Shown here in pieces: positions 13,139 to 58,726 of a stretch of 64,000 nt of DNA. The DNA comes from Escherichia coli (GTDB lineage Bacteria; Pseudomonadota; Gammaproteobacteria; Enterobacterales; Enterobacteriaceae). The position numbers and the translations under genes are program-made. Position 1 is the stretch's first letter, and every line of letters begins with the position of its first letter. The DNA is taken from NCBI RefSeq assembly GCF_050320075.1, contig NZ_CP190018.1. One strand, written 5' to 3'. A model generated the notes under the pieces. The model had not been told where the DNA came from. It saw nothing but the letters and a program-made list of their open reading frames with translations, and searched no databases.

Positions 13139-14128
13139 TTAGCCGCCAATGTACGATAAGTTTTGCGTAATACCGGTGTTGTTTTGATGCAGGAAATGGG
13201 TCTGTTTCTTCTCCCGCAGCGCCGCTGAAATACGCGCTTCCAGCGCCTGTTGCTGGGTATCGTCTTCCAGCAGATCGCGCAGGTTAACGCCGCCTTCACC
13301 AAACAGGCAGAGATGGAGTTTACCAATGGAGGAAACGCGCAGGCGGTTGCAAGTGGCGCAGAAGTCTTTTTCATACGGCATGATAAGGCCAATCTCTCCG
13401 GCGTAATCCGGATGACAAAAGACTTGCGCGGGACCGTCGCTGCGTTGACGTAATTGGTGGATCCAGCCGCGACGCAGTAGCTCGTCACGCAGAACCTGAC
13501 CAGAGATGTGATGCTTACGGAAGAGCTCGCTGCCCTCACCCGTTTCCATCAATTCGATGAAACGCAGCTGGATAGGGCGATGCTGGATCCAGTTCAGAAA
13601 GGTGTCGAGCTGATGATGATTAACATCACGCATCAGCACGGTATTGACTTTGACCTTTTCAAAACCGGCCTCAAATGCGGCATCGATCCCTGCCATGACC
13701 TGGTTGAATTTATCCTGCCCGGTAATGGCATGAAACTGGTGAGCGTCAAGGCTATCAACGCTGACGTTGATGCCAGTAAGTCCAGCATCGCGCCAGTTCG
13801 CCACATCGCGTTCCAGACGGTAACCATTGGTGGTGACCGCAATCTGGCGGATAGCGTCGTTTTCCCGCACAGCGGCGATGATATCGGTAAAGTCGCGGCG
13901 TAAAGACGGCTCACCACCTGTCAGACGGACTTTTTCGGTGCCAAGACTGGCGAAGGCGCGCGTAACCCGGCGAATTTCATCGACGGTAAGAAAGCCTTTA
14001 TTGGTGACGCCGCTCGGTTTGTAGCCATCCGGCAGGCAGTAGGTGCAACGAAAGTTACACACATCGGTAATCGACAGGCGCAAGTAGTAAAACTTACGCG
14101 CAAATGCATCAGTCAGTTGTGAAGCCAT
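13139..14128 (-). CDS. moaA: GTP 3',8-cyclase MoaA (radical SAM)
   Basis: 329-aa product from [33 protein letters not shown] with the CxxxCxxC radical-SAM motif. Confidence 0.95.
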
Positions 14129-14290
14129 GTACACCTTTCCAGATACGGGAGGCGAAGTCATTTCTTCCTTCGCCCTGGTGGCAATCTTTACGAGCATTGT
14201 CACGGCCAAAGCACCGTATCAGTTGACCCAGGTGCAGAGGCTAGAGTGTTTAGTGGTTAAGCCGATACTAGCGTGTAAATGAGATTTTTA
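14129..14290 (-). promoter_or_regulatory. moaA 5' leader; expected position of the molybdenum-cofactor (Moco) riboswitch and moa promoter
   Basis: Placement from established knowledge of the E. coli moaA leader; secondary structure not verified by me. Confidence 0.4.
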
Positions 14291-21875: not shown

Positions 21876-23165
21876 ATGACAACGGACGATCTTGCCTTTG
21901 ACCAACGCCATATCTGGCACCCATACACATCCATGACCTCCCCGCTACCGGTTTATCCAGTGGCGAGCGCCGAGGGTTGCGAGCTAATTTTGTCTGACGG
22001 CAGACGCCTTGTTGACGGTATGTCGTCCTGGTGGGCGGCGATCCACGGTTACAATCACCCGCAGCTTAATGCGGCGATGAAATCGCAAATTGATGCTATG
22101 TCGCATGTGATGTTTGGCGGTATCACCCATGCGCCCGCCATTGAGCTGTGCCGCAAATTGGTGGCAATGACGCCGCAACCGCTGGAGTGCGTTTTTCTCG
22201 CGGACTCCGGCTCCGTAGCGGTAGAAGTGGCGATGAAAATGGCGTTGCAGTACTGGCAGGCCAAAGGCGAAGCGCGCCAGCGTTTTCTGACCTTCCGCAA
22301 TGGTTATCATGGCGATACCTTTGGCGCGATGTCGGTGTGCGATCCGGACAACTCAATGCACAGCCTGTGGAAAGGCTATCTGCCAGAAAACTTGTTTGCT
22401 CCCGCCCCGCAAAGCCGCCTGGATGGTGAATGGGATGAACGCGATATGGTGGGCTTTGCCCGCCTGATGGCGGCGCATCGTCATGAAATCGCCGCAGTGA
22501 TCATTGAACCGATTGTCCAGGGCGCAGGCGGGATGCGCATCTACCATCCGGAATGGTTAAAACGAATCCGCAAAATGTGCGATCGCGAAGGTATCTTGCT
22601 GATTGCCGACGAGATCGCCACCGGATTTGGTCGTACCGGCAAACTGTTTGCCTGTGAACATGCAGAAATCGCGCCGGATATTTTGTGTCTCGGTAAAGCC
22701 TTAACCGGCGGCACAATGACCCTTTCCGCCACGCTCACCACGCGCGAGGTTGCGGAAACCATCAGTAACGGCGAAGCCGGCTGCTTTATGCATGGGCCAA
22801 CTTTTATGGGCAATCCGCTGGCCTGCGCAGCAGCAAACGCCAGCCTGGCGATTCTCGAATCTGGCGACTGGCAGCATCAGGTGGCGGCTATTGAAGGGCA
22901 GCTACGCGAGCAACTTGCCCCCGCCTGTGACGCCGAAATGGTTGCCGATGTGCGCGTACTGGGGGCAATCGGCGTGGTCGAAACCACTCGTCCGGTGAAT
23001 ATGGCAGCGCTGCAAAAATTCTTTGTCGAACAGGGTGTCTGGATCCGGCCTTTTGGCAAACTGATTTACCTGATGCCGCCCTATATTATTCTCCCGCAAC
23101 AGTTGCAGCGTCTGACCGCAGCGGTTAATCGTGCGGTGCAGGATGAAACATTTTTTTGCCAATAA
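21876..23165 (+). CDS. bioA: adenosylmethionine-8-amino-7-oxononanoate aminotransferase
   Basis: ORF 21813..23165; 429-aa product from [23 protein letters not shown]. Confidence 0.95.
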
Positions 23166-23223
23166 CGGGAAGTTAGCGTGAGGGTTTCTGGCTACACTTT
23201 CTGCAAACAAGAAAGGAGGGCTC

Positions 23224-23700
23224 ATGAAACTCATCAGTAATGATTTACGCGATGGCGATAAGCTGCCGCATCGTCATGTCTTTAACGGCATGGGTTACGA
23301 TGGCGATAATATTTCACCGCATCTGGCGTGGGATGATGTTCCTGTGGGAACGAAAAGTTTTGTTGTCACCTGCTACGACCCGGATGCGCCAACTGGCTCC
23401 GGCTGGTGGCACTGGGTAGTTGTTAATTTACCCGCGGATACCCGCGTATTACCGCAAGGGTTTGGCTCTGGTCTGGTAGCAATGCCAGACGGCGTTTTGC
23501 AGACGCGTACCGACTTTGGTAAAACCGGATACGATGGCGCAGCGCCGCCGAAAGGCGAAACCCATCGCTACATTTTTACCGTTCACGCGCTGGATGTAGA
23601 ACGTATTGATGTCGATGAAGGTGCCAGCGGCGCGATGGTCGGGTTTAACGTTCATTTTCACTCTCTGGCGAGAGCCTCGATTACTGCGATGTTTAGTTAA
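23224..23700 (+). CDS. ybhB: PEBP/YbhB-family protein (kinase-inhibitor homolog)
   Basis: 158 aa, MKLISNDLRDGDKLPHRHVFNGMGYDGDNISPHLAWDDVP; last host gene before att-lambda. Confidence 0.93.
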   Translation: MKLISNDLRDGDKLPHRHVFNGMGYDGDNISPHLAWDDVPVGTKSFVVTCYDPDAPTGSGWWHWVVVNLPADTRVLPQGFGSGLVAMPDGVLQTRTDFGKTGYDGAAPPKGETHRYIFTVHALDVERIDVDEGASGAMVGFNVHFHSLARASITAMFS

Positions 23701-23790
23701 TCACTCTGCCAGATGGCGCAATGCCATCTGGTATCACTTAAAGGTATTAAAAACAACTTTTTGTCTTTTTACCTTCCCGTTTCGCTCAAG

Positions 23791-23805
23791 TTAGTATAAA
23801 AAAGC
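23791..23805. other. lambda att core (O) at the attR junction (host B' arm / core / phage P arm)
   Basis: ttagtataaaaaagc is the reverse complement of the 15-bp core GCTTTTTTATACTAA; left flank cgctcaag matches attB. Confidence 0.9.
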
Positions 23806-23960
23806 TGAACGAGAAACGTAAAATGATATAAATATCAATATATTAAATTAGATTTTGCATAAAAAACAGACTACATAATACTGTAAAACACAACATATGC
23901 AGTCACTATGAATCAACTACTTAGATGGTATTAGTGACCTGTAACAGAGCATTAGCGCAA
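23806..23960. promoter_or_regulatory. lambda attP P arm (Int arm-type, IHF, Xis/Fis site region) as part of attR
   Basis: Reverse complement reads ...CTGTTACAGGTCACTAATACCATCTAAGTAGTTGATTCATAGTGACTGCATATGTTGTGTTTTACAGTATTATGTAGTCTGTTTTTTATGCAAAATCTAATTTAATATATTGATATTTATATCATTTTACGTTTCTCGTTCAGC, matching the lambda P arm from memory. Confidence 0.85.
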
Positions 23961-24510
23961 GGTGATTTTTGTCTTCTTGCGCTAATTTTTTGTCATCAAA
24001 CCTGTCGCACTCCAGAGAAGCACAAAGCCTCGCAATCCAGTGCAAAGCTTTGTGTGCCACCCACTACGGCCCGCATAACCAGTAAGAAGATAGCAGTGAT
24101 GTCAAACGACGCAGCAGTCTTCTTTTCTTTCACACTTTCCCCCACCCAGCATACATACCTTTCTGCCACAGCTGAAATGAATGTCTATTATGAGCAAGGA
24201 GAGGAAATTCGTAATTGTCATCATCAATGGCGATTTGCTGGTACTATCTGTGTTAAGTAATAGGAAAACAAGTAACTGGAGAAAGATTTGATTTACACAC
24301 TATTATAGCAGTTAATAGTTTAAGCTATTGACACTTTAACTATTTTGCATAAAGTTAAACATAACAACCCCATAAATTGATAATGCAAGAGAGTACTGAA
24401 CTAAGTATTTTAGCTCTACCATATTGCCCAGGCAGTATAATATATGATACATTAAAAAATTAGATTTAATTTACTTAAACATCCTAATCACACTAAGAAT
24501 GAAGAAATAA

Positions 24511-25389
24511 ATGCTGTTTAAATATTGTCCTATTAATGAGTATTCAATTAAATCTCTAGTGGAAAACAAACTATATCTTAATCATCTCAACATGATGAAT
24601 GACAGTGCTGAAGGTTTTTGTAAGATAATAAGTGGTTTCCCAGATTATAATGAAAAAACTGAGAGATATGATTTGATAATAAAAACATGGTGTGGAGAGT
24701 CTGGCTGGCTACCTTCTGAATATGAATATAACGAATATATTGATTCAATGAGAGAACTGGAACCAAATGTCCCGCAATTGCTGGACTCTGCAAGGATATC
24801 ATGCTTTACGAATACGGCGTTAAACCCTACAATGTGGGCTCATTATGCTAACAACAGAACAGGTATATGTATAGAATTCGATCAAGACAAAATAAGAGAA
24901 CTAGAGGATATCTATATCTTTGACGTCAAATATAAAGATCGCCCTCCGACTATTGATACTGCAGTACTAACATTAATAGCTGATCAGGTGAACTATAATC
25001 ATGATGCAATTTATGATGATTATCAAGAAAAGTTCAAACATCTTTATGAACAAGCATTTGACGAGGGAAGAAATTTGCTTTTGGAAATTTACAATGGAAT
25101 ATTGGCAACTAAATCTCAAGAATGGTCTTATGAACAAGAAAAACGGCTAATATATATTTTATCCTTCTCACAAGAAGACAAATTGGCAAAAAAATATAAA
25201 ACTGGCATAAACATATCACTCCCTGAAGGATGCATTAAAAGTGTTATCCTAGGTGAGAAGACAAGTGAGCATGATAAAAAACTTATAGTTTCAGCTATAA
25301 AAAAACATTCTAAACACATTAAGTTGAAGAGAGCTACAATAACACAAGGCGAATATTTATTATCTATTCGTGATGAAGTTTTTAGCTGA
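24511..25389 (+). CDS. hypothetical protein, DUF2971-like (cargo of the b-region slot)
   Basis: 292-aa ORF in roughly 30% GC DNA; N-terminus MLFKYCPINEYSIKSLVENKLYL...NDSAEGF and central NPTMWAHYANNRTGICIEFD resemble DUF2971 signatures as I remember them. Confidence 0.6.
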   Translation: MLFKYCPINEYSIKSLVENKLYLNHLNMMNDSAEGFCKIISGFPDYNEKTERYDLIIKTWCGESGWLPSEYEYNEYIDSMRELEPNVPQLLDSARISCFTNTALNPTMWAHYANNRTGICIEFDQDKIRELEDIYIFDVKYKDRPPTIDTAVLTLIADQVNYNHDAIYDDYQEKFKHLYEQAFDEGRNLLLEIYNGILATKSQEWSYEQEKRLIYILSFSQEDKLAKKYKTGINISLPEGCIKSVILGEKTSEHDKKLIVSAIKKHSKHIKLKRATITQGEYLLSIRDEVFS

Positions 25390-25678
25390 TGGTATTATAA
25401 TCGAACAGATATTTTCTCCTAAGCGTTGCATTTATCCCACGGTAACATATTCATACTCAAATATCCTGCGACATGGAAGATTTGAGTATGGTTGTTCTTC
25501 ATGAGCGAAAAGCAGATGTTCGCGCTAAGGTATAATCAATTGGTTGTTAAATAGTTTAAACACAAGCAATGACTAATAAAACAATGCCACAAACCTTATT
25601 ATTTCTAAACTAGCATTTAGCTTTCAGACAATTTATTGATTGTTAATACATATTTTTAATATTTAATTATCATTTATT

Positions 25679-25689
25679 CCCCCCCCCCC
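25679..25689. repeat. homopolymeric C11 tract (possible slipped-strand or phase-variable site)
   Basis: tt-ccccccccccc-tcatg, in the intergenic region about 245 bp upstream of ORF 25935. Confidence 0.8.
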
Positions 25690-25934
25690 TCATGCTTATC
25701 AAATACTTCACAACAACGGAATTTTAATCCACATTTGTTATCTGTCTCTATCAGATTCATCCATACCCCCCTCCATTATTATTTAATTTCCAGATAAAAA
25801 TCTTCATCCTGTTATACATATAAAAAAGTGCAATATTTAAATAATGATAACAAATTATTGATTTTGCTCACATAAATTTTATTGACAAGATGATAAGCTG
25901 ATATCTACACATTGTATTTTCTCAAGAGGAATTT

Positions 25935-26348
25935 ATGGCTGACATTGTCACTGGTTTGACCGCACTCAAAACCGCCTTTGATTTAGCAAAAGATATAAAA
26001 AATGCCACTGGCGCATACAATGATGCAGAAATGAGGCTTAAGTTTAGTGAGCTTTATAGCGCGCTATCTGAAGCCAAAATAGAACTGGCTGATACACAGC
26101 TAGAAATGTATGAACTAAAGCTGAAGATCGAAGAGTTGCAAGCTAAGCTTGATGCATCGGACGAGCTTGAATATAGGGAAAACGTATACTGGAGGGCCTC
26201 ACCTATCAATGGCAAACCAAACGGTCCTTTTTGCCCAAGATGTTATGAAAGTTCAGAGAAGAAGCTATCTTCAATGAGTCAAGTAACGGGGCATGCAACT
26301 ATTGCTGGAAAATACAAATGTAATACTTGTAACGCCTACGTTAGATAA
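25935..26348 (+). CDS. hypothetical coiled-coil protein with C-terminal four-cysteine zinc-ribbon-like motif
   Basis: 137 aa; N-terminal heptad-rich helix (LSEAKIELADTQLEMYELKLKIEELQAKLDA), C-terminal CPRC...(23 aa)...CNTC; AT-rich; preceded by aagaggaa RBS-like sequence. Confidence 0.55.
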   Translation: MADIVTGLTALKTAFDLAKDIKNATGAYNDAEMRLKFSELYSALSEAKIELADTQLEMYELKLKIEELQAKLDASDELEYRENVYWRASPINGKPNGPFCPRCYESSEKKLSSMSQVTGHATIAGKYKCNTCNAYVR

Positions 26349-26684
26349 AAAGCCGTTATGGGGCTGGGACGGAGGCTCAAATCCTCTCGTGCAAAAATTC
26401 AGCTAAAACTTTTGTTCAGGAGACTCTGAAAGATACCAAGAAGTCTGCTGACGAGTGGTTTATTTACTAATTAGCACGTAAAATCTATTATGGCTGGAAA
26501 TCATTCAATACTCGTACTATCGAAAGTTCGCCAGCCGACAGCAAAACGCTATTGCATGGCAGGGATTGCAGGCCTCTCGATATTCGGTGCTAAGGATGTA
26601 TCAACACGGTTCAGCAGAACCCGATGCGTCTTCAAAACCGCAGCAACGATATCTCTTCCTCCGTTCCATTTACAGCCACCTTTT

Positions 26685-26993
26685 TCACCCTCGATTAACC
26701 AACAACCAGACCAGAAGACACGCTACCACCGGCACAGCAAAATCCATCAGGCTTGCCATATCCCACGCGCGTGGGTCAAAACCGCCCCACCACGGCATAT
26801 TCATTCGCTTGCCATGCCCGAACATTTCGATCCAGCGATATTCTGCCTGGGTGTGTTCACGCGCAATGAAGAACGTACAACCGGCTATCGCCCCGTAAGC
26901 CCAGTTCCCGGTAAAAAGACCAATCAGTAGCTGCGCAGCCACAGCACAAAGCGCATGAAGGAAAGGTGTTATATCCATTTTCATCCCACCCAA
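26685..26993 (-). CDS. hypothetical small membrane protein
   Basis: 102-aa ORF with two hydrophobic segments, immediately downstream of the tail-fibre genes on the late strand. Confidence 0.45.
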   Translation of the reverse strand: MGGMKMDITPFLHALCAVAAQLLIGLFTGNWAYGAIAGCTFFIAREHTQAEYRWIEMFGHGKRMNMPWWGGFDPRAWDMASLMDFAVPVVACLLVWLLVNRG

Positions 26994-27020
26994 TAAAACG
27001 GGGCGCTCGGCCCCTTAATA

Positions 27021-28061
27021 TTATTTAGACGCAAGCGCCGCATCAATTGCAGATAATCTTTGTCTTAATTCTGCGTTTTCTTCTTCCAGTGCTGTTATTC
27101 TGTCGTCTGACTCTCTGGCTACCTGAACAAGCAAGCCAGTAACACCAGAATAATCTACTGTGTAATAACGTTCACCTTCTTCACCTTCCGATCCGCTCGC
27201 ACCGTCCTGATATTTCATTACGGAACCTACAACTTCTGGGATTGCTTCCAGAGCTTCCTGTGCAATGACACCAGCATAGGGCATACCGTTTTCTTTAAGC
27301 GTGTATGTATAGCCGTTCATTTTACGGATGCGGTCGGTTGCATTATCGATCACCTGAATGTTGTCTTTCAGATCCCGGTCGGAATGCTGGTTAAATGCGG
27401 TGGCATGACATGCACCATTAACGCTTAACATATAGGTGTTATCGGTATTTTTCTGCGCATAGAACATATAAGCGCCACCATCAACACCGACTTCATAAAC
27501 AACAGGACGGCTGGAGTTGCCCCACAATTGAGCAGTAACACCAGCATAAGCGGTTCCCTGTGTGTTTAATGTCATGGTTGACCCATGATTGGCATATTTG
27601 ATCTGTAATGTGTCGGTGTAATCAAATTTAATAAGCGCGTTACTTCCACGCTTGCTGTATGACATAAGGCAGTTACCCATTTTGAGGTATCCGCTGTCAC
27701 CGGGAAAAATCATCGTACCGCCATAAAGGTTGGTAAAGTCCCAGCAAATGTTTGTCCCGTTATCGTTCAGGTTAAGGCGCGCCATTGCGTTACCTGGACT
27801 GTCTATCCATTTTTTGAGGTATAGTTCGCAATATGCATCCTCAACACCTGCCGTCCTGTGAGTTGAGCGGAGTTTTCTCCCAAATATAGCTCCGCTAGTT
27901 GGCAATACCTGCTGATACCATGAAGCAGACCAGTCACCAACGGTTTCATCTTTGCTGTCTACATATGATTTTGTTGCGTAGCTTCCTTGATCGTTTTTTA
28001 ATTTGCTAACGTCGGATTTTAGCGTTTTGATGTCATCAGGAATTACTGTCGATGTAGCCAT
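27021..28061 (-). CDS. tail fibre/spike-like protein with C-terminal intramolecular-chaperone (peptidase S74-like) domain
   Basis: 346 aa; C-terminal 120 aa (SDRDLKDNIQVID...GYTYTLKENGMPYAGVIAQEALEAIPEVVG...YYTVDYSGVTGLLVQVARE...LEEENAELRQRL) resemble the self-cleaving chaperone domain of endosialidase-type fibres. Confidence 0.6.
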   Translation of the reverse strand: MATSTVIPDDIKTLKSDVSKLKNDQGSYATKSYVDSKDETVGDWSASWYQQVLPTSGAIFGRKLRSTHRTAGVEDAYCELYLKKWIDSPGNAMARLNLNDNGTNICWDFTNLYGGTMIFPGDSGYLKMGNCLMSYSKRGSNALIKFDYTDTLQIKYANHGSTMTLNTQGTAYAGVTAQLWGNSSRPVVYEVGVDGGAYMFYAQKNTDNTYMLSVNGACHATAFNQHSDRDLKDNIQVIDNATDRIRKMNGYTYTLKENGMPYAGVIAQEALEAIPEVVGSVMKYQDGASGSEGEEGERYYTVDYSGVTGLLVQVARESDDRITALEEENAELRQRLSAIDAALASK

Positions 28062-28070
28062 TTTTCTTCC

Positions 28071-28352
28071 TCACATCCAGCCACGAAGTTGATGCTCAAC
28101 AGCAACCACGTATTCATCGAATATTGACGGTGTTTTCACATCATTAATGATGCGCACGTTTACAAAATATCCGTCTTCCTTAACACATACCGGTTCGCCA
28201 TCTTCATTCAGTTCTCCGGTTTCTTTGTACACGTTACCTATCACGTCAATAAGAATATCATCCTGCATCGACTCATCATCATAATAGCCAGTGCTATCCA
28301 TAAAGGCCGAAAAATCGGCCCTGTCGGCAAATTTAAGTGTTAAATCTTTCAT
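28071..28352 (-). CDS. hypothetical acidic protein between the two fibre genes
   Basis: 93-aa ORF, start overlaps stop of upstream fibre gene; no recognisable Tfa motif. Confidence 0.5.
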   Translation of the reverse strand: MKDLTLKFADRADFSAFMDSTGYYDDESMQDDILIDVIGNVYKETGELNEDGEPVCVKEDGYFVNVRIINDVKTPSIFDEYVVAVEHQLRGWM

Positions 28353-30754
28353 TTAATACTCTCCCCCATTTGCGCATCAGTTAATTCTTTATGCCAGAGA
28401 CGAAGATTTCTCAAATGGCCGAATAGATGACGTGTCCCTGATGTGGCTTGACCTCCTATTCTAATAAAGGTCCGCGTTTTTACGCCCGTCCATTCCGTTT
28501 CAATGGTTTTAGTAGCCTCACCGTTAGAAACTACTCGTTTAGTACCGTCAGAATAAATATTAAAACCACCAATGAATTTTCGAACATCCGTTCGACCAGT
28601 AAACAAACTAGAAACGTAACTACTTGTCGACGCTTTATAAGTTTGCATATAAAGCTGACCGTAATATCTCTCGGTTGTGTTAAAAGCGTATGTGATTGAC
28701 TCAATAGGCGGCACACCAGAAAAATCAAAAATACGCGGTGCTACATTAGGGGGAATATCGCCCCAATTCCTGTTAACCTCGACCAAACAAGTAAGCGGTC
28801 TGTTATAAATGTTGTTTTCGGTCGGGATCGTAACCATATCACTCGCACGAGTCGCCGCCGTCGCTCCTGATATAATAAAAGATGATACACAAGGCCCATC
28901 TTCTACTTGTGGGGTGGCCAGATAAATATAGTCACCAGATACGGTTGCCCCGCTCTGCTTAGGAGAATACTGTATCTGAGAGCCTATTTTTAACTCCCCA
29001 TCAATTGCCTGAATTGTTGCCTCTGCAAAAATCCATCCGGTAGCTTCGTCCTTTCTGACTCTCGCTGTAATCCTTGAGGCAGCACCGCCTGTCATATTAA
29101 TTTCAAGCGTTTGTGTATCAATATACGCATCACCAAGAAAAGTTGTTGCGCTACCGTCATATTTATCAAACCGGATACGCAACCTTACCTGCAGTTCTGT
29201 TTTAAAACGACATGAGGTTGTCACGTATTTATTATCGCCTGAGACATCAACTGACTTTGTTGCAGCAATTGATGCCATATTAATGGCTGAGGTTTGCCCA
29301 ATCAGAGAATCGTTACAGACAAACTTTCCATAGGTAAAACCAAAACTATCCGTCCCGGTTTCGGGAACATCCATATTTGACGATCGCCCCCAACTGGCAG
29401 GGCTTTCCGAATTGAGCATGTAGTTCGCTCTTTGCCCCTCAATAAGCAGGCCATCACGTTCAAATCGTGGCTCGTCAATGGCAGCCTCTGTCAGCACACC
29501 AGATTTATTAATATAGGTTGCTTTCGATGCGCGTTTAAACTTTACAACCTTATCGCCAGGCATCGTTATTTCATCATCACCAATAACAATCTTTTTATAT
29601 GACGGCGAAAACCCCGTAATCATATCCAGTGAATCGTTAAACGGTATCCACACATCAGGCAACGGCTGCAAAACTTGTTTATACGGCTCCGCTGCCTGGC
29701 TTGCATACTCTCTGGCTGCGTCTTCACTTGCTTTAGCTGCTGTCTGGCTTGCTGCCGATGCTTGCGCCGAGTTCGCCGCTGTAGTCTCGCTCGCCTTTGC
29801 GTTGTCTTCACTGGTTTTTGCAGCTCTTTGACTGTTGGCTGATGCCGTGGCAGAAGCAGCCGCCGCGCTTGCAGAACCAGCTGCGGCACTCTCGCTTTGG
29901 GCCGCTGCATCCTGACTGTTTTTCGCCGCAGTTTCGCTGGCTTTGGCATTCGTTTCGCTGGTCTTCGCTGCAGTCTCGCTTGTCTTTGCGTTGGTTTCAC
30001 TGGTTTTTGCAGCTCTTTGACTGTTGGCTGATGCCGTGGCAGAAGTAGCCGCCGCACTTGCAGAACTGGCTGCCGCTCTCTCGCTTTGGGCTGCTGCATC
30101 CTGACTGTTTTTTGCTGCGGTAGCGGAGTTTGCTGCGGCACTCTGACTCGATTCTGCAGCCACCTCGCTATTTTTCGCATTAGTTTCGCTGGTCTTTGAA
30201 GCTGTCTCACTCGCTTTTGAGTTGTTTTCTGATTTTTTGGCTGCAGTCGCGGAGTTTGCCGATGCAGTCTGTGAGGCCGCTGCCGCCTGTGCGCTGTTAG
30301 CTGCATTCGTTTCTGAGGTTTTCGCCGCGTTCTTCGATGATGCCGCTGCAGTTTCGGATGTCTTTGCCGCCGCTGCGCTCTGAGAGGCGGCTTCAGCGTT
30401 GCGTGCCGCTTCTTCCACCATTTCCTGAAAACGGCGCAATGCCTCCGGCATGACATCATCTTCCGTCATGGCACCGAGAAAATCATTCAGCGTCCCCGGA
30501 CTGGAACCTTCATAGACGGTAATGGTCCCGGCATGTGAAGGCGGAAAACCTTCAACCAGCAGGATGACGCTGTACTGGCCATACTCAACGTCCATACTGT
30601 AACGCCCGGCTTCATCAGGATTTTCAGAGGCCACCGTGTTCACCAGTACCGTGGTGCTGTTACGCTTTGCCTTCAGTTGAATAGTGCAGTTCTGTATTGG
30701 TTTTCCCGCACCATCTTTCAGCACACCTGAGATTTTTACTGCTGCCATATCCAC
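28349..30754 (-). CDS. stf: side tail fibre protein (Stf-like): lambda-type N-terminus, Ala/Ser/Thr-rich repeat shaft, divergent C-terminal domain
   Basis: 801 aa; N-terminus MAAVKISGVLKDGAGKPIQNCTIQLKAKRNSTTVLVNTV...GRYSMDVEYGQYSVIL matches lambda Stf; central AAKTSETNAK/AAAQSE repeats; C-terminal 450 aa unlike lambda. Confidence 0.85.
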   Translation of the reverse strand: MDMAAVKISGVLKDGAGKPIQNCTIQLKAKRNSTTVLVNTVASENPDEAGRYSMDVEYGQYSVILLVEGFPPSHAGTITVYEGSSPGTLNDFLGAMTEDDVMPEALRRFQEMVEEAARNAEAASQSAAAAKTSETAAASSKNAAKTSETNAANSAQAAAASQTASANSATAAKKSENNSKASETASKTSETNAKNSEVAAESSQSAAANSATAAKNSQDAAAQSERAAASSASAAATSATASANSQRAAKTSETNAKTSETAAKTSETNAKASETAAKNSQDAAAQSESAAAGSASAAAASATASANSQRAAKTSEDNAKASETTAANSAQASAASQTAAKASEDAAREYASQAAEPYKQVLQPLPDVWIPFNDSLDMITGFSPSYKKIVIGDDEITMPGDKVVKFKRASKATYINKSGVLTEAAIDEPRFERDGLLIEGQRANYMLNSESPASWGRSSNMDVPETGTDSFGFTYGKFVCNDSLIGQTSAINMASIAATKSVDVSGDNKYVTTSCRFKTELQVRLRIRFDKYDGSATTFLGDAYIDTQTLEINMTGGAASRITARVRKDEATGWIFAEATIQAIDGELKIGSQIQYSPKQSGATVSGDYIYLATPQVEDGPCVSSFIISGATAATRASDMVTIPTENNIYNRPLTCLVEVNRNWGDIPPNVAPRIFDFSGVPPIESITYAFNTTERYYGQLYMQTYKASTSSYVSSLFTGRTDVRKFIGGFNIYSDGTKRVVSNGEATKTIETEWTGVKTRTFIRIGGQATSGTRHLFGHLRNLRLWHKELTDAQMGESIK
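29770..30140. repeat. tandem direct repeat of 189 bp (about 90% identical copies) inside stf
   Basis: tcactggtttttgcagctctttgactgttggctgatgccgtggcagaag at 29808 recurs at 29997; flanking sequence also repeats. Confidence 0.85.
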
Positions 30755-30812
30755 TCCACAAAAAAGCCCGCCTGAACCGGCGGGCTGTCATAACACTGTG
30801 TTACCTGGCTAA

Positions 30813-31412
30813 TCAGAATTTATAACCGACACCCACGATGAAACCGTCAGTGTGCCAGTCACCACTGCCGGAGCCTTCATAAGCAAGGTCAATGGCCACG
30901 GATTCGGTCGGGTTAAACTGCACGCCAGCCCCCCACGCCAGAGACGTGTCGCTGTGGCGACCGTCATCACTTCCGTTCAGCACATCGTACGTTTTCCCCT
31001 TATTGTCAGTTACGCGGAGATAATCCCCGGAGAAGGTCGACACACGGCTGTAAGCCACGCCCGCCATCGCATACGCGCTGAACCATTCATTCACGCGTAC
31101 AGACGGCCCCGCCATCATGCTGAACCAGCGGTTACGCACTGAATCTTCATGCCAGCGGGTATCGCTGTAACGGGTAATCTGGCGATTCTTGTCTCCTGCA
31201 TAACTGAATGACGTCACCAGCCCCAGCGTGTCCGTAAATTCATAACGGTATTTCACGTTAATGCCCTTCAGGTCATCACTGCCTGGCATATCAGTATGGG
31301 CCTGAAGATACCCGGCGCTTAGTGTGGACTGATGCTCTGCTGCGCTCGCTGGCGTACCAACGGCAACCAGCCAGACTACTGCGGACAGAATAACAGCACA
31401 TAATTTACGCAT
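30813..31412 (-). CDS. lom: outer-membrane protein Lom (Ail/PagC/OmpX family)
   Basis: 199 aa with signal peptide and C-terminal ...[11 protein letters not shown] identical to the lambda Lom terminus; directly downstream of J. Confidence 0.9.
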
Positions 31413-31479
31413 AATTACCTCTCGCTTTTCTGCAATAAAAAAGGCGTCATTTCTGACGCCCGTATTGGGGTTATAAAAT

Positions 31480-34400
31480 TCAGCTGATACTGATGCCTGC
31501 GGTGGCTTTCTTCATCACCACAACCAGCAAATCGCTGATACTTGCTGTGGGATACCAGTCATTTACCAGCCATGCTGACACCGAAAACTCCAGCGTCATG
31601 TGACCGTGACCGGCAGGCATATCAACAACGCCACTGTAAATCAGCGTATTATCCAGCGCGGTACGGTTATAAATTTCAGCACCGTTTTTCCGCACTATCA
31701 GACGGCATGAGGAGTAAATATCAGTATGCTCTCTCTCATGTTTAGCGCCGCTGAATGCCACCGCCGGAATAACAATCTGCCGGTCAAACGGCTGATCGTC
31801 ATAAACCCTGACGGTAATGGTCCCTGATGGCCACCGTTCCGGTGCACGGGAGTCACGGGGGAAAGCTTTGCCCACTGTTTTAACGAGATCGCCTTCAATC
31901 TGGTTCGCGGACAGTTTTCCCAGAACCCGGCAATTCTCGTTAATCGTGACGTTGTTGAGCGTCCCGGAGTTCGCATTCACGTTACCGCTGATATCGGCAT
32001 TTTTTGCCGTCAGCCGCCCGTCCGGTGTCAGGGAAAATGCCGGAGGATTACCGCCGCTGGTAATGGTGGGAGCCGTCAGATATTTCAGGAACACTTCATT
32101 CATAAATATCTGATCGCCCTGACCAACAAACATCGGCTTTGTGTTGCCATTCGCAGGATTAATCATCGCAATCCTGTCTGCCGCCAGCAGCACCTGACTC
32201 TGCATGCCGTCAGGGGTGTTTTCAATACCGGCACCAATACCCGCGATATAAAGGCGTCCGTCCTGCATCTGCTGCAGCTTCACAGCCCACATGCTGCTCA
32301 GGTTATTATTTGTATCAACCTGAACCTTCTGTATCTGCTGGATCGCTGCACTCTGGTCTTCCAGTTTCTTATTGACGGTCTGCGTGATTTCATTGCTGAC
32401 ATCCGTAATGGACGTCCTGATTTCAGCCAGGTCAGGCGCAAGCTGACCGTTATCAATCTGCGTCCACAGCTCCTGAGCCAGATGGGTTTTCCCTATCTCT
32501 CCTTTGAAAAAATCCAGATAGCCGGATGCATCATCACTCGGCTGGCCAACAGCCTCCACAAATGCCGATTTGCCAACGGTGTTCACACTGCGGATGTAAA
32601 AATAATAATCACGGCCCGGTTTGATATTGATACTGGCGGCTATCCAGTACAGCGCCGTGCCAAGATAGCGGGCTGTGGTTTCAACCTGCCTGATATCGGT
32701 AATCCGCGTTTCCGAGAACCAGAACTCAAACTGTACCGTCGGATCATAAACCGCAAGATGCGGCGTGGCAGTTATCTGAAAATAGCCCGGCGTCAGCTCA
32801 ATCCGCGACGGCGCTGCCGGTGCGGCAATCCGGAACGATACCGACGCCGGATCGCCCTGCTGCCCCCAGGCATTTGCCGCCCGGACTGTCAGCCTGTAGT
32901 TTCCCAACGCCAGTTGCGTGAAGCGGTATGTGGTTTCCGTCGTCCGGGCCGTGCTGACCAGCCGCTCACTGCCGTCATCCGCTGCCACGGTCAGGCGAAG
33001 CATAAAGCTCACGCCCTTCACCACCTTCGGCGTGTCCCAGCGCGCCAGTACCTGATATTCCCCGCTGTCTGCGGTGACTTCGGCAGTCAGGTGCTGCACC
33101 GCTGGCGGCGTGACACCATTCACCGTGCCACTCTGGTCGCCGTCAAAGTGCGCCCCGTTATCCACGATGGCCTCTTTTTCCGGCACATGCTGCACAGCGG
33201 TGATGGCATACGTGCCGTCGTCGTTCTCACGGATACTCACACAGCGGAACAGGCGCTGACGCAGCATCGGCAGCTTCAGCCCCCACACGCTGTATTCGGC
33301 AACGCCGTCAGGAACACGGCTCACTTTTACCTTCACGCCGTCGGTGACGGACTGGACCTCCACGCTCACCGGATTACCCTGCCCGTCAACCAGGCTTATC
33401 AGCGTGGTACCGGAGGATGGCAGCGTGATTTCACGGTCGAGCGTCAGCGTCCGGGTCTGGCTGTTCACCGCCAGCACGCGACCACCGATGCTGATACCGG
33501 CATAGTCATCATCACAGATTTCAATGACATCGCCCGGTACATGGCGAAGCCCTTCGGCACCCACGCTGAAGTCCACGGTCTGCGTTTCCAGCAGTTCCGT
33601 TTTAATCAGCCACAGCCCGGCGCGGTGCGCCTGCCCCCGGCTGGTACAGCCAAAGGCATCCATCTTCGTGACGTTACGACCGTAACGGAGAATGGCCTGC
33701 GTATCTTCAACAAGCTCTGTCGCCGTCTCCCAGCCGTTATTCGGGTCAATCCAGTTCACCTCAACGGCATTATGGCGGTCCTTCAGGGCGCTGAAGCTGT
33801 AGCGGAACGGCGCGCCATCATCCGGCATCACCACATTACTGTGGTTATAGGTCCACACCTTATCCGACGGTCGGTCCTGCACGAACGTCAGCGTCTGCCC
33901 GTTCCATACCGGCATACAGCGCATCGCCGAACAGAAATCACTGAGCACATCCCACGCCTTACGCTGTGTGGTCAGCCAGGCATTACAGGTGATGCGCGGC
34001 TCCGTACCACCAAAGCCATCCGGCACTGACTGATCGCAATACTGGCCGATGACATACAGCGCCCATTTGTCCACATCCGCCGCACCAAGACGTTTCCCCA
34101 TGCCGTAGCGCGGGTGGGTCAGCATATCCCACAGACACCAGGCCATGTTGTTGCTGTATGCCGGTTTAAACGTCCCGTCCCAGATACCGCTGTATTGCCG
34201 CGTCTGCGGGTTATAGTTCGATGGCACCTGCAGAATGCGCCCGCGAAGATGATAATTACGGCTCACCTGCTGGCTGCCGAACTGTTCCGAGTCCACCTGC
34301 ACGCCGACCAGTGCCGTGTTCGGGTAGCACTGTTTCACATCGATGATTTCAGTGTATGACGACCAGAGCGTTTTGTTCTGCAGCTGGTCTGTGGTGCTGT

Positions 34401-34959
34401 CCGGCGTCATCCTGCGCATCCGGATATTAAACGGGCGCGGCGGCAGGTTACCCACCACCACCGATGCCAGATACTGTGAGGTGGTTTTGCCTTTAATGGT
34501 GATGTCTTTTTCCGTCACCCAGCCACCGTTACGCTGTATCTGAACCAGCAGGCGGACTTCCGACGGATTCCGGTCCCCCTTTGAGGTGGTTTCCACCAGT
34601 GCCTGCACACCGAAGGTAAAGCGCAGACGGTCGATGTTTGCAGACGTGATGGTCCGGGTAATCGGCGTGTCGTACTTCACTTCCGTACCCAGCACCGTCT
34701 CGGAGCCGGAGGATTCAAATCCCTCCGGCGGTGTCTGCTCCTGCTCACCTGCCCGGAAAACCACCGTGACACCGGAGATATTGGTATTCCCCTCACTGTC
34801 CAGCACTGGCGTACTGTTCAGCAGCACACTTTTTAATCCGTCCACCGGACCTTCAATCGGCCCTTCACTGATGGCGTCTATCACGCTCAGCATCTGCGTG
34901 GACTTCAGGTTGTCCTTCGCTTCGCGCGGGGTATGCCCCTTACTGCTGCCTTTACCCAT
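31480..34959 (-). CDS. J: tail tip host-specificity protein J with divergent C-terminal receptor-binding region
   Basis: 1159 aa; [22 protein letters not shown]... near-identical to lambda gpJ for about the first 800 residues; last 330 residues diverge. Confidence 0.93.
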
Positions 34960-51678: not shown

Positions 51679-52143
51679 TTATCTGAGGCATTGCTCTCGA
51701 ATGTATAGCTGTGCCCCTTCAAGTTGTTTTTGCATTATTATCAGTCGCGCTCTGAGGGTGAAATAATCCCGTTCAGCGGTGTCTGCCAATCGGGGGGAGG
51801 CTGCATTATCCACGCCGGAGGCGGTGGTGGCTTCACGCACTGACTGACAGACTGCTTTGATGTGCAACCGACGACGACCAGCGGCAACATCATCACGCAG
51901 AGCATCATTTTCAGCTTTCGCATCAGCTAACTCCTTCGTGTATTTTGCATCGAGCGCAGCAACATCACGCTGACGCATCTGCATGTCAGTAATTGCCGCG
52001 TTCGCCAGCTTCAGTTCTCTGGCATTTTTGTCGCGCTGGGCTTTGTAGGTAATGGCGTTATCACGGTAATGATTAACAGCCCATGACAGGCAGACGATGA
52101 TGCAGATAACCAGAGCGGAGATAATCGCGGTTACTCTGTTCAT
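51679..52143 (-). CDS. Rz: spanin inner-membrane subunit Rz (i-spanin)
   Basis: [60 protein letters not shown] matches lambda Rz; ATGA overlap with R stop. Confidence 0.93.
51741..51923 (-). CDS. Rz1: spanin outer-membrane lipoprotein Rz1 (o-spanin), embedded in Rz in another frame
   Basis: 60 aa, [60 protein letters not shown]: lipobox LVVVGC and proline-rich stretch as in lambda Rz1. Confidence 0.9.
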
Positions 52144-54121: not shown

Positions 54122-55081
54122 TTAATTTACCATCAGTCTTAGAGCCAGTTCGTCCGGATAGGGATCGAAGTAATTCTGTGTAAGCAAGTAATCATTAGGA
54201 TACTCACCCAGATAATGCTTCAGCAGAGTCAACGGCGCAAGAAGAGGTAATGTGCCAGAACGATAGTTAAGTATAACCTCGCTCAACTCTTTACGCTGGC
54301 GTGTACTTAAGTAGTTACTAAAATACCCCTGTATATGCATCATCACATTCGTGTGATTTTTACGTGATGCAGGTTTTCTGAGAATCGCCATCAGCTTATC
54401 ACGATACACCTCAAAGTATGATTCAAGGTCCGCCCACTCGTGTATTGCAGCCACAAATGGTCCCATATCTTTATAGCCTGCCTGACTATGCGCCAACAAC
54501 TGAAGCTTATAACGACTATGAAAAGCTAATAACTCTCTTCTTGATAATTTCTCCTTGTAAAGGTGATTGAGCTCATGCAAAGCAAAAACTCTTTCAACAA
54601 AATTCTCACGAAGCACTGGATCATGTAATCGCCCATCCTCTTCAACCGGTAGCCAGGAAAACTTTTCCATCAAAGTGCTCGTAAATAGTCCCACTCCATC
54701 TTTACGACCTCGATTACCATTTTCATCATAGACACGCACGCGCTCCATGCCACAGCTGGGAGATTTAGCACAAACCACAAACCCCGATACATCCTTTAAT
54801 TTGTCCATATAAGAACGACTAAACTCTGTCATTCTCTCTGTCACATCCTCATTCTGGTCGTGGCTGAAACACATCCGTATATTTCCTTGCGTCGAGCGCA
54901 CAAGACGTAGAGCAGGACGCGGAACTGGCAGCCCTATAGCCATTTCCGGACATACTGGTCTGAATGTTACCCATTCCACTAATTTGTCCATTAAAAAGTC
55001 AGCTCTTTTGTGACCACCATCAAAACGAACAGCAGAACCGGCCAGACAACCGCTGATTCCAATCACAGGTTTTTTTATCAT
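54122..55081 (-). CDS. DUF523 (TudS-like) / DUF1722 (YbgA-like) fusion protein
   Basis: 319 aa; N-terminus IGISGCLAGSAVRFDGGHK plus conserved Cys (CPEM, CAKSPSCGMERVRVY) resembles DUF523; C-terminal half resembles DUF1722; assignment from memory of family signatures. Confidence 0.6.
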   Translation of the reverse strand: MIKKPVIGISGCLAGSAVRFDGGHKRADFLMDKLVEWVTFRPVCPEMAIGLPVPRPALRLVRSTQGNIRMCFSHDQNEDVTERMTEFSRSYMDKLKDVSGFVVCAKSPSCGMERVRVYDENGNRGRKDGVGLFTSTLMEKFSWLPVEEDGRLHDPVLRENFVERVFALHELNHLYKEKLSRRELLAFHSRYKLQLLAHSQAGYKDMGPFVAAIHEWADLESYFEVYRDKLMAILRKPASRKNHTNVMMHIQGYFSNYLSTRQRKELSEVILNYRSGTLPLLAPLTLLKHYLGEYPNDYLLTQNYFDPYPDELALRLMVN

Positions 55082-55273
55082 ATCCTCCCCCTTGACTAAT
55101 TCATTAACACATAAACTGTGTAGTGCACGGAATAAATTGCCTTTCTGGCGTCATCACTGACAATTTTTCTGTTATGGACTATTCCTAATATAGTATGAAA
55201 GTTCTTTAAGTGATCGGTCGTAATCATCTATCTTTCATACTTACTCTCAACTATCAAAAGTACAGGATTTATT

Positions 55274-55798
55274 ATGAAGTTATGGCCTGTGTTGACTGGC
55301 ATTGCACTCTCTTTCACTCTTATAGCATGTAAGGCCCCGACACCACCTAAAGGTGTGCAGCCGATTACAAATTTTGACGCCAACCGCTACCTCGGAAAGT
55401 GGTATGAAATAGCTCGCCTCGAGAACCGGTTCGAACGTGGTCTGGAACAGGTCAGCGCTACTTATGGAAAACGGAACGACGGAGGGATTCGTGTACTTAA
55501 CCGTGGATACGATCCAACGAAAAATAAATGGAGCGAGAGCGAAGGTAAAGCATACTTTACTGGAGATACTAAAACTGCAGCGTTGAAGGTTTCGTTTTTT
55601 GGCCCCTTCTATGGTGGCTATAATGTAATCAAACTGGATGATGAGTATAAGTATGCTCTTGTCAGTGGTCCGAACAGAGAATACCTATGGATTCTGGCAA
55701 GGACCCCAACTATTCCAGATAAAGTAAAAGCAGACTATGTGCGAACCGCTCAAAAGTTGGGATTCAATGTCAATGAATTATTATGGGTTAAACAATAA
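55274..55798 (+). CDS. outer-membrane lipocalin, Blc-like lipoprotein
   Basis: 174 aa; lipobox LIAC, then NFDANRYLGKWYEIARLENRFERGLEQVSATY...KAYFTGDTKTAALKVSFFGPFYGGYNVI very similar to E. coli Blc; on the strand opposite to late genes. Confidence 0.85.
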   Translation: MKLWPVLTGIALSFTLIACKAPTPPKGVQPITNFDANRYLGKWYEIARLENRFERGLEQVSATYGKRNDGGIRVLNRGYDPTKNKWSESEGKAYFTGDTKTAALKVSFFGPFYGGYNVIKLDDEYKYALVSGPNREYLWILARTPTIPDKVKADYVRTAQKLGFNVNELLWVKQ

Positions 55799-55835
55799 AA
55801 TCCCTACCCGAAATAATACTTATTAGAATAAATAT

Positions 55836-55860
55836 CCTCCGGCATAGCCGGAGGTTTTTC
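55836..55860 (+). terminator. rho-independent terminator after the blc-like gene
   Basis: cctccggcatagccggagg followed by tttttc. Confidence 0.7.
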
Positions 55861-55869
55861 AAATGCGCC

Positions 55870-56570
55870 TATAAGGCTCTCTTACCAGCCGCGCCCTAAC
55901 AGGCGCACACGATCTGACATTTGCATCCAACTTCGTTACTTACGGCCCGTAAACGGGCTGCCCGGATAGGGAATCGATAACTGCTCTCCCATTTTATCCT
56001 CTTCAAGCTGGTGCTTTATGTAGTCCTGTATCTTCGCCGTGTTCTTACCCACCGTATCGACATAGTACCCTCGGCACCAGAACTCCCTGTTTCTGTATTT
56101 GAATTTCAAATCCCCAAACTGCTCGTAAAGCATCAGACTGCTTTTCCCTTTCAGATATCCCATAAAGCCGGATACGCTCATTTTGGGTGGGATTTCCACA
56201 AGCATATGGATATGATCTGCGCAGCACTCTGCTTCCAGAATCCGTACGCTTTTCCACTCACACAGCTTTCTCAAAATACTGCCTATCGCCCTACGCTTCT
56301 CTCCGTAAAACGCCAGTCTTCGGTATTTCGGCGCAAAAACTATGTGATATTTACAGTTCCAGCGGGTGTGCACTAAGCTCTTTTCGTCCCCCATTGGGAC
56401 CCCCTTTTGATTTCTTGTTTGACACTTGCAGTTGCCAGACCGCAAGGTGTTTTAACAAATCAAAAGGGGTTTTAATAACTGGCTCAAAGCTGAAAGCTTT
56501 CCGGAACCCCCAGCCTAGCTGGGGGTTTTCTGTGCACAAAAAAACCAGCCTTTGGGGAGGCTGGCTAAAT
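55870..56570 (-). mobile_element. IS200/IS605-family (IS200-like) insertion sequence; boundaries approximate
   Basis: HuH Y1 transposase gene flanked by subterminal hairpins (gcccgtaaacgggc at 55937-55950; cccccagcctagctggggg at 56508-56527; ccagcctttggggaggctgg at 56546-56565). Confidence 0.75.
55936..56394 (-). CDS. tnpA: IS200-family transposase TnpA (Y1 HuH)
   Basis: 152-aa product from MGDEKSLVHTRWNCKYHIVFAPKYRR with HxH motif (DHIHMLVEIPP) and catalytic Tyr region (RGYYVDTVG). Confidence 0.9.
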   Translation of the reverse strand: MGDEKSLVHTRWNCKYHIVFAPKYRRLAFYGEKRRAIGSILRKLCEWKSVRILEAECCADHIHMLVEIPPKMSVSGFMGYLKGKSSLMLYEQFGDLKFKYRNREFWCRGYYVDTVGKNTAKIQDYIKHQLEEDKMGEQLSIPYPGSPFTGRK

Positions 56571-58532: not shown

Positions 58533-58726
58533 GCTTCACCTCCGCAGAGGTCAAACGTTGGATGCAAAGAATCGCAGGTGCATTTCTGCATCTGTGAAGA
58601 GAGAAGAGAGTTTAGATTGTATGTGCGCATAAACGTCCCCGTTTAGCGCAGAAGTCACCGGAGTTGTTCAGGCTCCAATGGCATGATTATGGCTGGTTGA
58701 TTATTGGAAATCAAATGTGCTGAAAA

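What the first reader, a model, noticed from the sequence alone, without database searches (positions are those of the whole stretch)
23700..23960. Integration junction shows the prophage uses the lambda Int/att-lambda system
The host B' flank, the 15-bp core and a P arm matching lambda attP are contiguous, so this mosaic phage carries lambda integration specificity. A cognate int/xis and attL should lie beyond the right end of the window. It also means the bio-proximal side is the J side of the prophage, the geometry that yields bio-transducing particles on aberrant excision.
Basis: partly seen in the sequence, partly recalled or inferred. Interest (0 to 1): 0.3.

Follow-up and report, generated by a model that had tools for sequence, protein, structure and literature searches.

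The report
Lambda-type attR prophage junction
This is the ordinary right-hand junction (attR) of a lambda-like prophage sitting in the classic lambda attachment site next to the E. coli biotin genes; about a third of complete E. coli genomes carry a junction of this type.

Summary
Window 23701-23790 is the host B' flank after the ybhB stop. The 15-bp lambda core lies at 23791-23805 on the minus strand. Window 23791-24068 equals lambda 27738-27461 with no differences, covering the core, the whole P arm and the tI/sib hairpin.

The window matches E. coli Ec-U3 with 2 mismatches in 64 kb. In that genome the predicted partners lie 8.3-9.6 kb past the window end:
- Xis is 71/72 identical to lambda Xis.
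- Int is 353/356 identical, with all catalytic residues present.
- attL (B-core-P') has a P' arm identical to lambda and abuts ybhC.

The prophage is 49.8 kb and mosaic. Joining its two host flanks with one core reproduces an empty attB found at 100% identity in another strain.

The gene order is bioA-ybhB-attR-b region-stf-lom-J, the textbook lambda geometry. Phage DN1, a bio-transducing DE3 derivative, has the same order.

Of 5,426 complete E. coli genomes, 1,920 have a B'-core-P junction and 3,487 have an empty attB.

Excision and transduction activity are inferred, not shown.

The parts
21876..23165 (+). bioA, the first biotin gene on the host side
   Evidence: RefSeq annotation of the near-identical Ec-U3 record mapped to window coordinates.
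23224..23700 (+). ybhB (PEBP-family protein annotated as 'kinase inhibitor'), the last host gene before the junction
   Evidence: 158-aa ORF; Pfam PBP E = 1.1e-41; annotated ybhB in Ec-U3.
23701..23790 (.). Host B' flank (the B' arm of attB and the ybhB 3' region)
   Evidence: Joined to the B flank from attL with one core, it reproduces an empty attB found at 100% identity in strain CFSAN061763 and uninterrupted in 3,487 of 5,426 genomes.
23791..23805 (-). 15-bp common core (O), the crossover site; equals lambda 27724-27738
   Evidence: Exact and unique in the window; the lambda record annotates misc_recomb at 27724-27738.
23806..23958 (-). P arm of attP (to about -160), identical to lambda
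   Evidence: Zero differences from lambda across 23791-24068; alignment.
23833..23845 (+). IHF consensus match at the H2 position (lambda -47 to -35)
   Evidence: WATCAANNNNTTR match. The role of H2 in excision is from PMC4880445; its position is from my own recall.
23895..23914 (-). Arm-type Int site P2 (lambda record 'int 2', 27615-27634)
   Evidence: Identical sequence; lambda annotation. That 'int 2' corresponds to P2 is my inference from position.
23911..23923 (+). IHF consensus match at the H1 position (lambda -125 to -113)
   Evidence: The H1 position is from my own recall.
23927..23946 (-). Arm-type Int site P1 (lambda record 'int 1', 27583-27602)
   Evidence: Identical sequence; lambda annotation. 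That 'int 1' corresponds to P1 is my inference from position.
23951..23992 (+). tI terminator / sib hairpin (12-pair stem then a U run), the retroregulator of int, here placed at the prophage end opposite to int
   Evidence: Identical to lambda; predicted stem AUUAGCGCAAGG...CUUGCGCUAAU followed by UUUUUU, fold z = -3.2. Its identity as tI/sib is from my own knowledge, partly supported by PMC5300877.
23791..24209 (-). Whole lambda-homologous block at the prophage end (lambda 27738-27319; 100% identical to 24068, about 96% overall)
24511..25389 (+). b-region cargo gene (DUF2971), not lambda-derived
   Evidence: Pfam DUF2971 E = 1.1e-12; PADLOC candidate PDC-S31 E = 9.5e-38.
28349..30754 (-). 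Side tail fibre gene (stf-like)
   Evidence: Pfam phage_tail_N E = 2.8e-65; annotation.
30813..31412 (-). lom-like outer-membrane protein gene
   Evidence: Annotation as Ail/Lom family.
31480..34959 (-). J (tail tip), showing that the bio-proximal end of the prophage is the J end
   Evidence: Annotation; 96.8% identity to lambda from 32463 onward.
50470..50471 (.). cos junction (lambda base 1 adjoins base 48502); packaging would run toward lower window coordinates, through J and attR toward bio
   Evidence: Adjacent BLAST blocks end at lambda 1 and 48502. The packaging direction is from established knowledge of lambda.

Best explanation
Window 23701-23958 is attR (P-O-B', read here as its reverse complement B'-O-P). 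It is the right junction of a 49.8-kb mosaic lambdoid prophage integrated by lambda-type Int at the canonical E. coli attB between ybhC and ybhB, in the gal-bio interval.

Integration happened by Int-mediated exchange within the 15-bp core. This split attP into a P arm next to ybhB/bio (attR) and a P' arm next to ybhC (attL).

On induction, the following steps are inferred from sequence identity to lambda. IHF would bend the P arm at H2. Xis, helped by Fis, would bend it further so that an Int subunit bridges P2 and B'. This attR complex would then pair with attL, where IHF sits at H' and Int bridges P'1-C' and P'2-B, to regenerate attP and attB.

The tI/sib element immediately outside the P arm is separated from int in the prophage. 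From textbook knowledge, pL-driven int mRNA should therefore escape sib retroregulation during induction.

The prophage order is bio-ybhB-attR-b-stf-lom-J...cos. Rare aberrant excision could therefore produce bio-carrying phage in which bio replaces int/xis/red, as it does for lambda.
For: - Core: exact and unique in the window.
- P arm: 278 nt from the core outward are identical to lambda, E = 1e-106.
- Binding sites: the annotated Int arm sites and the IHF consensus sites are all in place.
- Host side: ybhB and the bio genes.
- Precise insertion: the reconstructed empty attB is 100% identical to a real empty site.
- Proxy genome: it differs from the window by 2 of 64,000 bases.
- attL: the proxy genome has a second core 49.8 kb away abutting ybhC, with a lambda-identical P' arm.
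- Recombination proteins: Int is 353/356 identical with R212, K235, H308, R311, H333 and Y342 all present, and Xis is 71/72.
- Independent relative: strain 631 has the same Int and Xis protein accessions.
- Mechanism: the roles of H2, X1-X2, the P2-B' bridge and the P' arm come from the excisive-complex structure paper PMC4880445. sib retroregulation is cited in PMC5300877.
- Transduction precedent: DN1 is a bio-transducing phage with the same order.
Against: Nothing in the sequence contradicts this reading. The limits are as follows.
- int, xis and attL lie outside the window and were read in near-identical public genomes, not in the source itself.
- Int carries three substitutions (H164P, I248V, G267D) whose effect was not tested.
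- An IS200/IS605 element sits between Q and the lysis genes, and two prophage genes are annotated as pseudogenes. Particle production, and therefore transduction, is not assured.
- No experimental evidence of excision exists here.
Confidence: 0.95

Rival explanations
1. The integration module is intact in sequence, but the prophage is 'grounded'. It no longer makes infectious or transducing particles, so attR is a fossil of a past integration rather than a working excision substrate.
For: An IS200/IS605 transposase with its STnc490 RNA is inserted between Q and the lysis cassette at 55936-56527 and is absent from the sister prophage in strain 631. A frameshifted HTH gene and a P22AR-domain pseudogene are annotated. 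The element is vertically conserved in 45 related genomes.
Against: Both att sites, int, xis, cos, terminase and the full head, tail, lysis and replication gene sets are present as intact ORFs. The pseudogenes lie in accessory regions. An IS200 insertion downstream of Q need not block Q-antiterminated transcription (inference).
Confidence: 0.2
2. An orphan attR: a remnant P arm left next to ybhB by a decayed prophage, with no cognate int or attL.
For: Within the window alone only one core copy exists, and no int or xis is present.
Against: The near-identical genome has a complete 49.8-kb prophage ending in int-attL-ybhC. A second relative shows the same ends.
Confidence: 0.03
3. A laboratory lambda or DE3 lysogen (K-12 or BL21 background) rather than a natural lambdoid prophage.
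For: The P arm is 100% identical to lambda and DE3.
Against: The structural genes are only about 96% identical to lambda. The immunity, nin, Q, S/R lysis genes, side tail fibre and b regions are non-lambda. The host flank is 98.2% identical to K-12 MG1655. The same junction plus b region occurs in 45 genomes, nearly all natural isolates from humans, animals, birds and water.
Confidence: 0.01

Closest known systems
Bacteriophage lambda attR and the Int/Xis/IHF/Fis site-specific recombination system (J02459 coordinates 27461-27965)
   Same: The core, the P arm with its P1, P2, H1 and H2 positions, the tI/sib hairpin and the P' arm are identical in sequence. Int is 99% and Xis 99% identical. The host site (ybhC|ybhB) and the prophage orientation (int at the gal side, J at the bio side) are the same.
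   Different: The phage carrying the module is not lambda. Its head and tail genes are about 96% identical, and its immunity region, nin region, Q, S/R lysis genes, side tail fibres and b region differ. Int has three substitutions: H164P, I248V and G267D.
Escherichia phage DN1 (MF374379.1), a bio-transducing derivative of prophage DE3
   Same: The order J-lom-stf-b-attR-ybhB-bioA-bioBFCD-uvrB is contiguous in an encapsidated phage genome. The junction is 99.7% identical to window 23700-24000.
   Different: DN1 is the product of aberrant excision from BL21(DE3). The window shows the un-excised prophage state in a different host lineage with different b-region cargo.
Lambdoid phages HK629 and HK630 (annotated attP 'similar to lambda attP')
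   Same: They carry the same lambda-type attP, 99.5% identical over the 214-nt match. This shows that the lambda int-att module circulates among mosaic lambdoid phages.
   Different: These are free phage genomes with an intact attP. Their overall gene content was not compared here.
Other prophages at the same ybhB junction in E. coli, for example in O157:H7 strains, with P arms about 91% identical
   Same: They show the same B'-core-P architecture at the same host site. Of 5,426 complete genomes, 1,920 have such a junction.
   Different: Their P arms are diverged (about 90-92%), whereas the P arm here is 100% lambda.

Membership tests
Lambda Int/att site-specific recombination module (attR) | 15-bp common core GCTTTTTTATACTAA at the host-phage boundary | tested here: met
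   Exact match at 23791-23805 on the minus strand, unique in the window.
Lambda Int/att site-specific recombination module (attR) | P arm of about 150 bp carrying the arm-type Int sites P1 and P2 and the accessory IHF, Xis and Fis sites | tested here: met
   Zero differences from lambda 27461-27738. The lambda record's 'int 1' and 'int 2' sites map to 23927-23946 and 23895-23914. IHF consensus matches lie at 23833-23845 and 23911-23923. The Xis and Fis sites were not scanned separately but fall within the identical stretch.
Lambda Int/att site-specific recombination module (attR) | Host flank is the B' side of E. coli attB, between ybhC and ybhB in the gal-bio interval | tested here: met
   ybhB and bioA lie immediately to the left. 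The reconstructed B-O-B' is 100% identical to an empty site in strain CFSAN061763 and uninterrupted in 3,487 genomes.
Lambda Int/att site-specific recombination module (attR) | Partner attL (B-O-P') at the other prophage end, with a P' arm carrying H' and P'1-P'3 | tested here: met
   It is not in the window. In Ec-U3 (2 mismatches from the window in 64 kb) the core is at extended coordinate 73607-73621, and 242 nt of P' arm plus the int 3' end show no differences from lambda.
Lambda Int/att site-specific recombination module (attR) | Cognate heterobivalent tyrosine integrase with the catalytic residues R212, K235, H308, R311, H333 and Y342 | tested here: met
   Read in the proxy genome. Int is 353/356 identical to lambda Int and all six residues are visible in the alignment. 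The positions I recall as switching lambda to HK022 core specificity (N99, S282, G283, R287, E319; my own knowledge) are lambda-type in that alignment.
Lambda Int/att site-specific recombination module (attR) | Cognate excisionase Xis overlapping the start of int | tested here: met
   Read in the proxy genome. The 72-aa protein is 71/72 identical to lambda Xis, and the gene overlaps the 5' end of int as in lambda.
Lambda Int/att site-specific recombination module (attR) | Demonstrated Int- and Xis-dependent excision regenerating attP and attB | not testable with these tools
   This needs induction followed by junction PCR or sequencing, or an in vitro recombination assay.
Bacteriophage lambda itself (Lambdavirus lambda) | Genome-wide collinear near-identity to lambda, including the immunity region | tested here: not met
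   There is no lambda match for the immunity, nin, Q, S/R or b regions. The matching blocks are 83-99% identical.

The most novel reading that the evidence does not exclude
The att junction itself holds nothing new. The most novel reading left open concerns what sits beside it. The 2.4 kb just inside attR (24210-26600) has no counterpart in any sequenced phage isolate. It encodes a DUF2971 protein matching the untested defence candidate PDC-S31, plus an unknown 137-aa ORF. This could be a functional anti-phage cargo module acquired at the att-proximal b region. Together with the SIR2 (PDC-S25) gene at the pL side, it would make this ST38-associated (one matching genome is named ST38) lambda-type prophage a carrier of two uncharacterised defence systems.
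Probability: 0.2. Interest if true: 0.3.

Novelty: already known. Interest (0 to 1): 0.05.

Why it matters
The finding matters little beyond annotation. It fixes the exact right boundary of the prophage at window 23791-23805. It also identifies the integration module as lambda's own and shows that the element is a full-length, precisely inserted lambdoid prophage.

It gives a useful census figure. In 5,426 complete E. coli genomes, the lambda attachment site is empty in 3,487 and carries a lambda-family B'-core-P junction in 1,920.

It also shows that the int-att module stays constant while the central modules of the prophage are swapped between closely related strains.

The biology of attR, Int/Xis directionality, sib retroregulation and bio transduction has been textbook knowledge for decades.

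Tried and rejected
- **Second core or int/xis inside the window:** I looked and found none. I therefore identified the source by similarity and read on in the near-identical Ec-U3 record.
- **Right end in the whole clade:** I expected all 45 genomes that share the attR and b region to share the right-hand 10 kb. Only 2 do. Strain 631 showed that this reflects swapped central modules, not a missing int or attL.
- **Terminator scan:** the consensus scan did not report the tI hairpin, probably because its interrupted stem gives an apparent loop longer than the scan's 8-base limit. RNA folding recovered it.
- **Rfam:** no family was found at the junction. The only hits are a Moco riboswitch and STnc490 elsewhere in the window.
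- **ORF across the P arm and sib region:** the 111-aa ORF at 23925-24260 has no Pfam match. I treat it as non-coding because the DNA there is the lambda att/sib regulatory region.
- **Failed call:** one paper reading failed on a term that was too short and was repeated.
- **Rejected readings:** chance similarity, an orphan attR remnant, and a laboratory lambda or DE3 lysogen. The reasons are given under the rival explanations.

Full report
**Observation**

The region reads, on the + strand, as follows.
- The end of a 158-aa ORF, with its stop at 23698-23700.
- About 90 bp of intergenic DNA.
- The sequence TTAGTATAAAAAAGC at 23791-23805.
- An AT-rich stretch.

TTAGTATAAAAAAGC is the reverse complement of the lambda common core GCTTTTTTATACTAA. 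It occurs exactly once in the 64-kb window, where 0.14 matches are expected even with two mismatches allowed.

A search of 50,697 phage records with window 23700-24000 hits lambda J02459 at 27529-27742, at 99.5% identity and E = 1e-106. It also hits many lambda derivatives, as well as HK629 and HK630, whose records annotate the site as attP. A base-by-base comparison shows no differences at all between window 23791-24068 and lambda 27738-27461. The first differences appear at 24069 and 24072. The single mismatch in the BLAST alignment is the first base past the core on the host side, where lambda P' and host B' diverge. The mapping is window = 51529 - lambda coordinate.

**Anatomy of the junction**

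- The lambda record's Int-binding sites map to 23927-23946 ('int 1', the P1 arm-type site), 23895-23914 ('int 2', P2) and 23782-23815 (the core region).
- The IHF consensus WATCAANNNNTTR matches at 23833-23845 and 23911-23923. These are lambda -47 to -35 and -125 to -113, which I recall as the H2 and H1 positions.
- The Xis and Fis sites lie between these, inside the identical stretch.
- Immediately outside the P arm, 23951-23992 folds on the + strand into a 12-pair hairpin followed by a U run. From established knowledge this is lambda tI, part of the sib retroregulator of int. PMC5300877 cites the sib effect.

**Host side**

- The ORF ending at 23700 is ybhB (Pfam PBP, E = 1.1e-41).
- To its left lie bioA (21876-23165, +), bioB, bioF, bioC, bioD and uvrB.

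**Source of the window and what lies beyond it**

Window 22000-34000 is 100% identical to several complete genomes, among them strain Ec-U3 (NZ_CM192149.1). Across all 64,000 bases the window differs from the reverse strand of that record at only two positions, 9948 and 15479, both outside the prophage.

Continuing the record in window orientation gives the following.
- xis at 72267-72485.
- int at 72463-73533.
- A second copy of the core at 73607-73621.
- ybhC, then the rest of the gal-side genes.

The protein and arm comparisons are as follows.
- Int is 353/356 identical to lambda Int. R212, K235, H308, R311, H333 and Y342 are all present. The substitutions are H164P, I248V and G267D.
- Xis is 71/72 identical.
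- The P' arm plus the 3' end of int, 242 nt in total, has no differences from lambda.

The prophage therefore spans 23791-73621, or 49.8 kb.

Joining the left flank, one core and the right flank gives a 407-nt sequence. It is 100% identical to an uninterrupted ybhB-ybhC interval in strain CFSAN061763. This shows a precise, conservative insertion at attB.

**Robustness of the proxy**

Forty-five complete genomes share the attR junction plus the adjacent b region. Only two of them, Ec-U3 and YZLc1-3, share the 10 kb beyond the window. I checked what the others have by fetching strain 631.
- It has the same tail and head genes.
- It has the same Int protein accession (WP_001550841.1) and the same Xis accession (WP_001303849.1).
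- It has the same ybhC junction.
- It has different modules at extended coordinates 50833-51715, 58672-62398 and 63552-68202, and it lacks the IS200 element at 55833-56537.

The window carries the Ec-U3-type modules. In both variants int, xis and attL are present, so the prediction holds whichever of these two sequenced relatives stands in for the source.

**Mosaicism**

The comparison with lambda gives the following.

| Segment | Relation to lambda |
|---|---|
| Nu1 to the N-terminal two-thirds of J | about 96-97% identical |
| Rz | 95% |
| P/ren and the 3' part of O | 94% |
| kil-gam-bet-exo region | 97% |
| int-xis | 99% |
| att/sib block | 96-100% |
| J C-terminus | diverged |
| Side tail fibre, b region, S/R, Q, nin region, immunity region | no or weak lambda match |

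cos is intact at 50470|50471.

**Mechanism**

- *Shown here:* the sequence identity of every cis element of attR; in the proxy genome, the identity of attL and near-identity of Int and Xis; and the precise core duplication.
- *Inferred from the lambda literature (PMC4880445):* excision would proceed by IHF bending at H2 and Xis bending at X1, X1.5 and X2, stimulated by Fis. An Int bridge from P2 to B' would form on attR. Synapsis would follow with attL, where IHF bound at H' lets Int bridge P'1-C' and P'2-B.
- *Inferred from textbook knowledge:* in the prophage, sib/tI lies at the opposite end from int, so pL-derived int mRNA should escape retroregulation on induction.

**Geometry and transduction**

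The order is bioBFCD / bioA-ybhB-attR-b region-stf-lom-J ... cos.

A real example is in the phage collection. Phage DN1 (MF374379.1) arose from the DE3 prophage in BL21(DE3). It carries J-lom-stf-b-attR-ybhB-bioA-bioBFCD-uvrB contiguously, and its junction is 99.7% identical to the window. Whether this particular prophage produces particles is untested.

**How common it is**

Among 5,426 complete E. coli genomes, 3,487 have an uninterrupted attB. A further 1,920 have a B'-core-P junction covering at least 80% of window 23640-23960; a sample spread across those hits ranged from about 91% to 100% identity. The configuration is routine.

**Verdict**

The feature is the textbook lambda attR in a natural mosaic lambdoid prophage, so it is already known and of low interest. 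The only mildly interesting items are side observations:
- uncharacterised cargo next to attR;
- a SIR2 gene at the pL side;
- modular replacement of the central prophage region between closely related strains while the int-att module stays constant.

Noticed in passing
window 24210-26600 (DUF2971 ORF 24511-25389 +; unknown ORF 25935-26348 +): The b-region DNA just inside attR is not lambda-like. It has no match among 50,697 phage records. The DUF2971 protein matches the uncharacterised PADLOC defence candidate PDC-S31 at E = 9.5e-38.
   Followed up: partly
L002:23704-25305 (-), about 2-3.4 kb beyond the window end (extended coordinates about 65814-67415): A 533-aa SIR2-family protein lies next to the repressor gene, in the lambda rex/N position. 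It matches PADLOC candidate PDC-S25 at E = 3e-235 and, more weakly, the ThsA SIR2 domain.
   Followed up: partly
window 55833-56537: An IS200/IS605 transposase gene with the STnc490 RNA (Rfam 146 bits, 56404-56527) is inserted between Q and the lysis cassette. It is absent from the otherwise matching prophage of strain 631.
   Followed up: partly
window 50833-51715, 58672-62398, 63552-64000 (continuing to about 68202 beyond the window): Strains sharing the same att junctions, Int, Xis and structural genes carry different central modules. The window type has DUF1398, emrE with the ybcK serine recombinase, and an XRE-type repressor with YdaT and SIR2. Strain 631 has iss, a 1,302-aa inverse autotransporter, and an S24 repressor with cII, sieB, ral and cIII. 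Only 2 of 5,426 genomes have the window-type early region, against 45 with the same attR and b region.
   Followed up: partly
window 31480-32460: The C-terminal part of J (the receptor-binding end) is diverged from lambda: about 76% identical over 31943-32293 and no match below that. The rest of J is 97% identical. This suggests a different receptor specificity.
   Followed up: no
window 54122-55798: Cargo genes lie between Q and the lysis genes: a YbgA-family protein (319 aa, minus strand) and a lipocalin-family protein (174 aa, plus strand), with a frameshifted HTH gene next to them.
   Followed up: no
window 14116-14260 (-): A molybdenum cofactor riboswitch lies upstream of moaA in the host flank. 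This is expected host biology.
   Followed up: no
window 9948 and 15479: These are the only two differences between the window and E. coli Ec-U3 over 64 kb. Both are in host DNA.
   Followed up: no
window 27021-28061 (-): A second tail-fibre gene carries a Peptidase_S74 (endosialidase chaperone) domain downstream of stf. This side tail fibre region is about 94% identical to phages Tritos, PhiR63_1 and HannyBb rather than to lambda.
   Followed up: no
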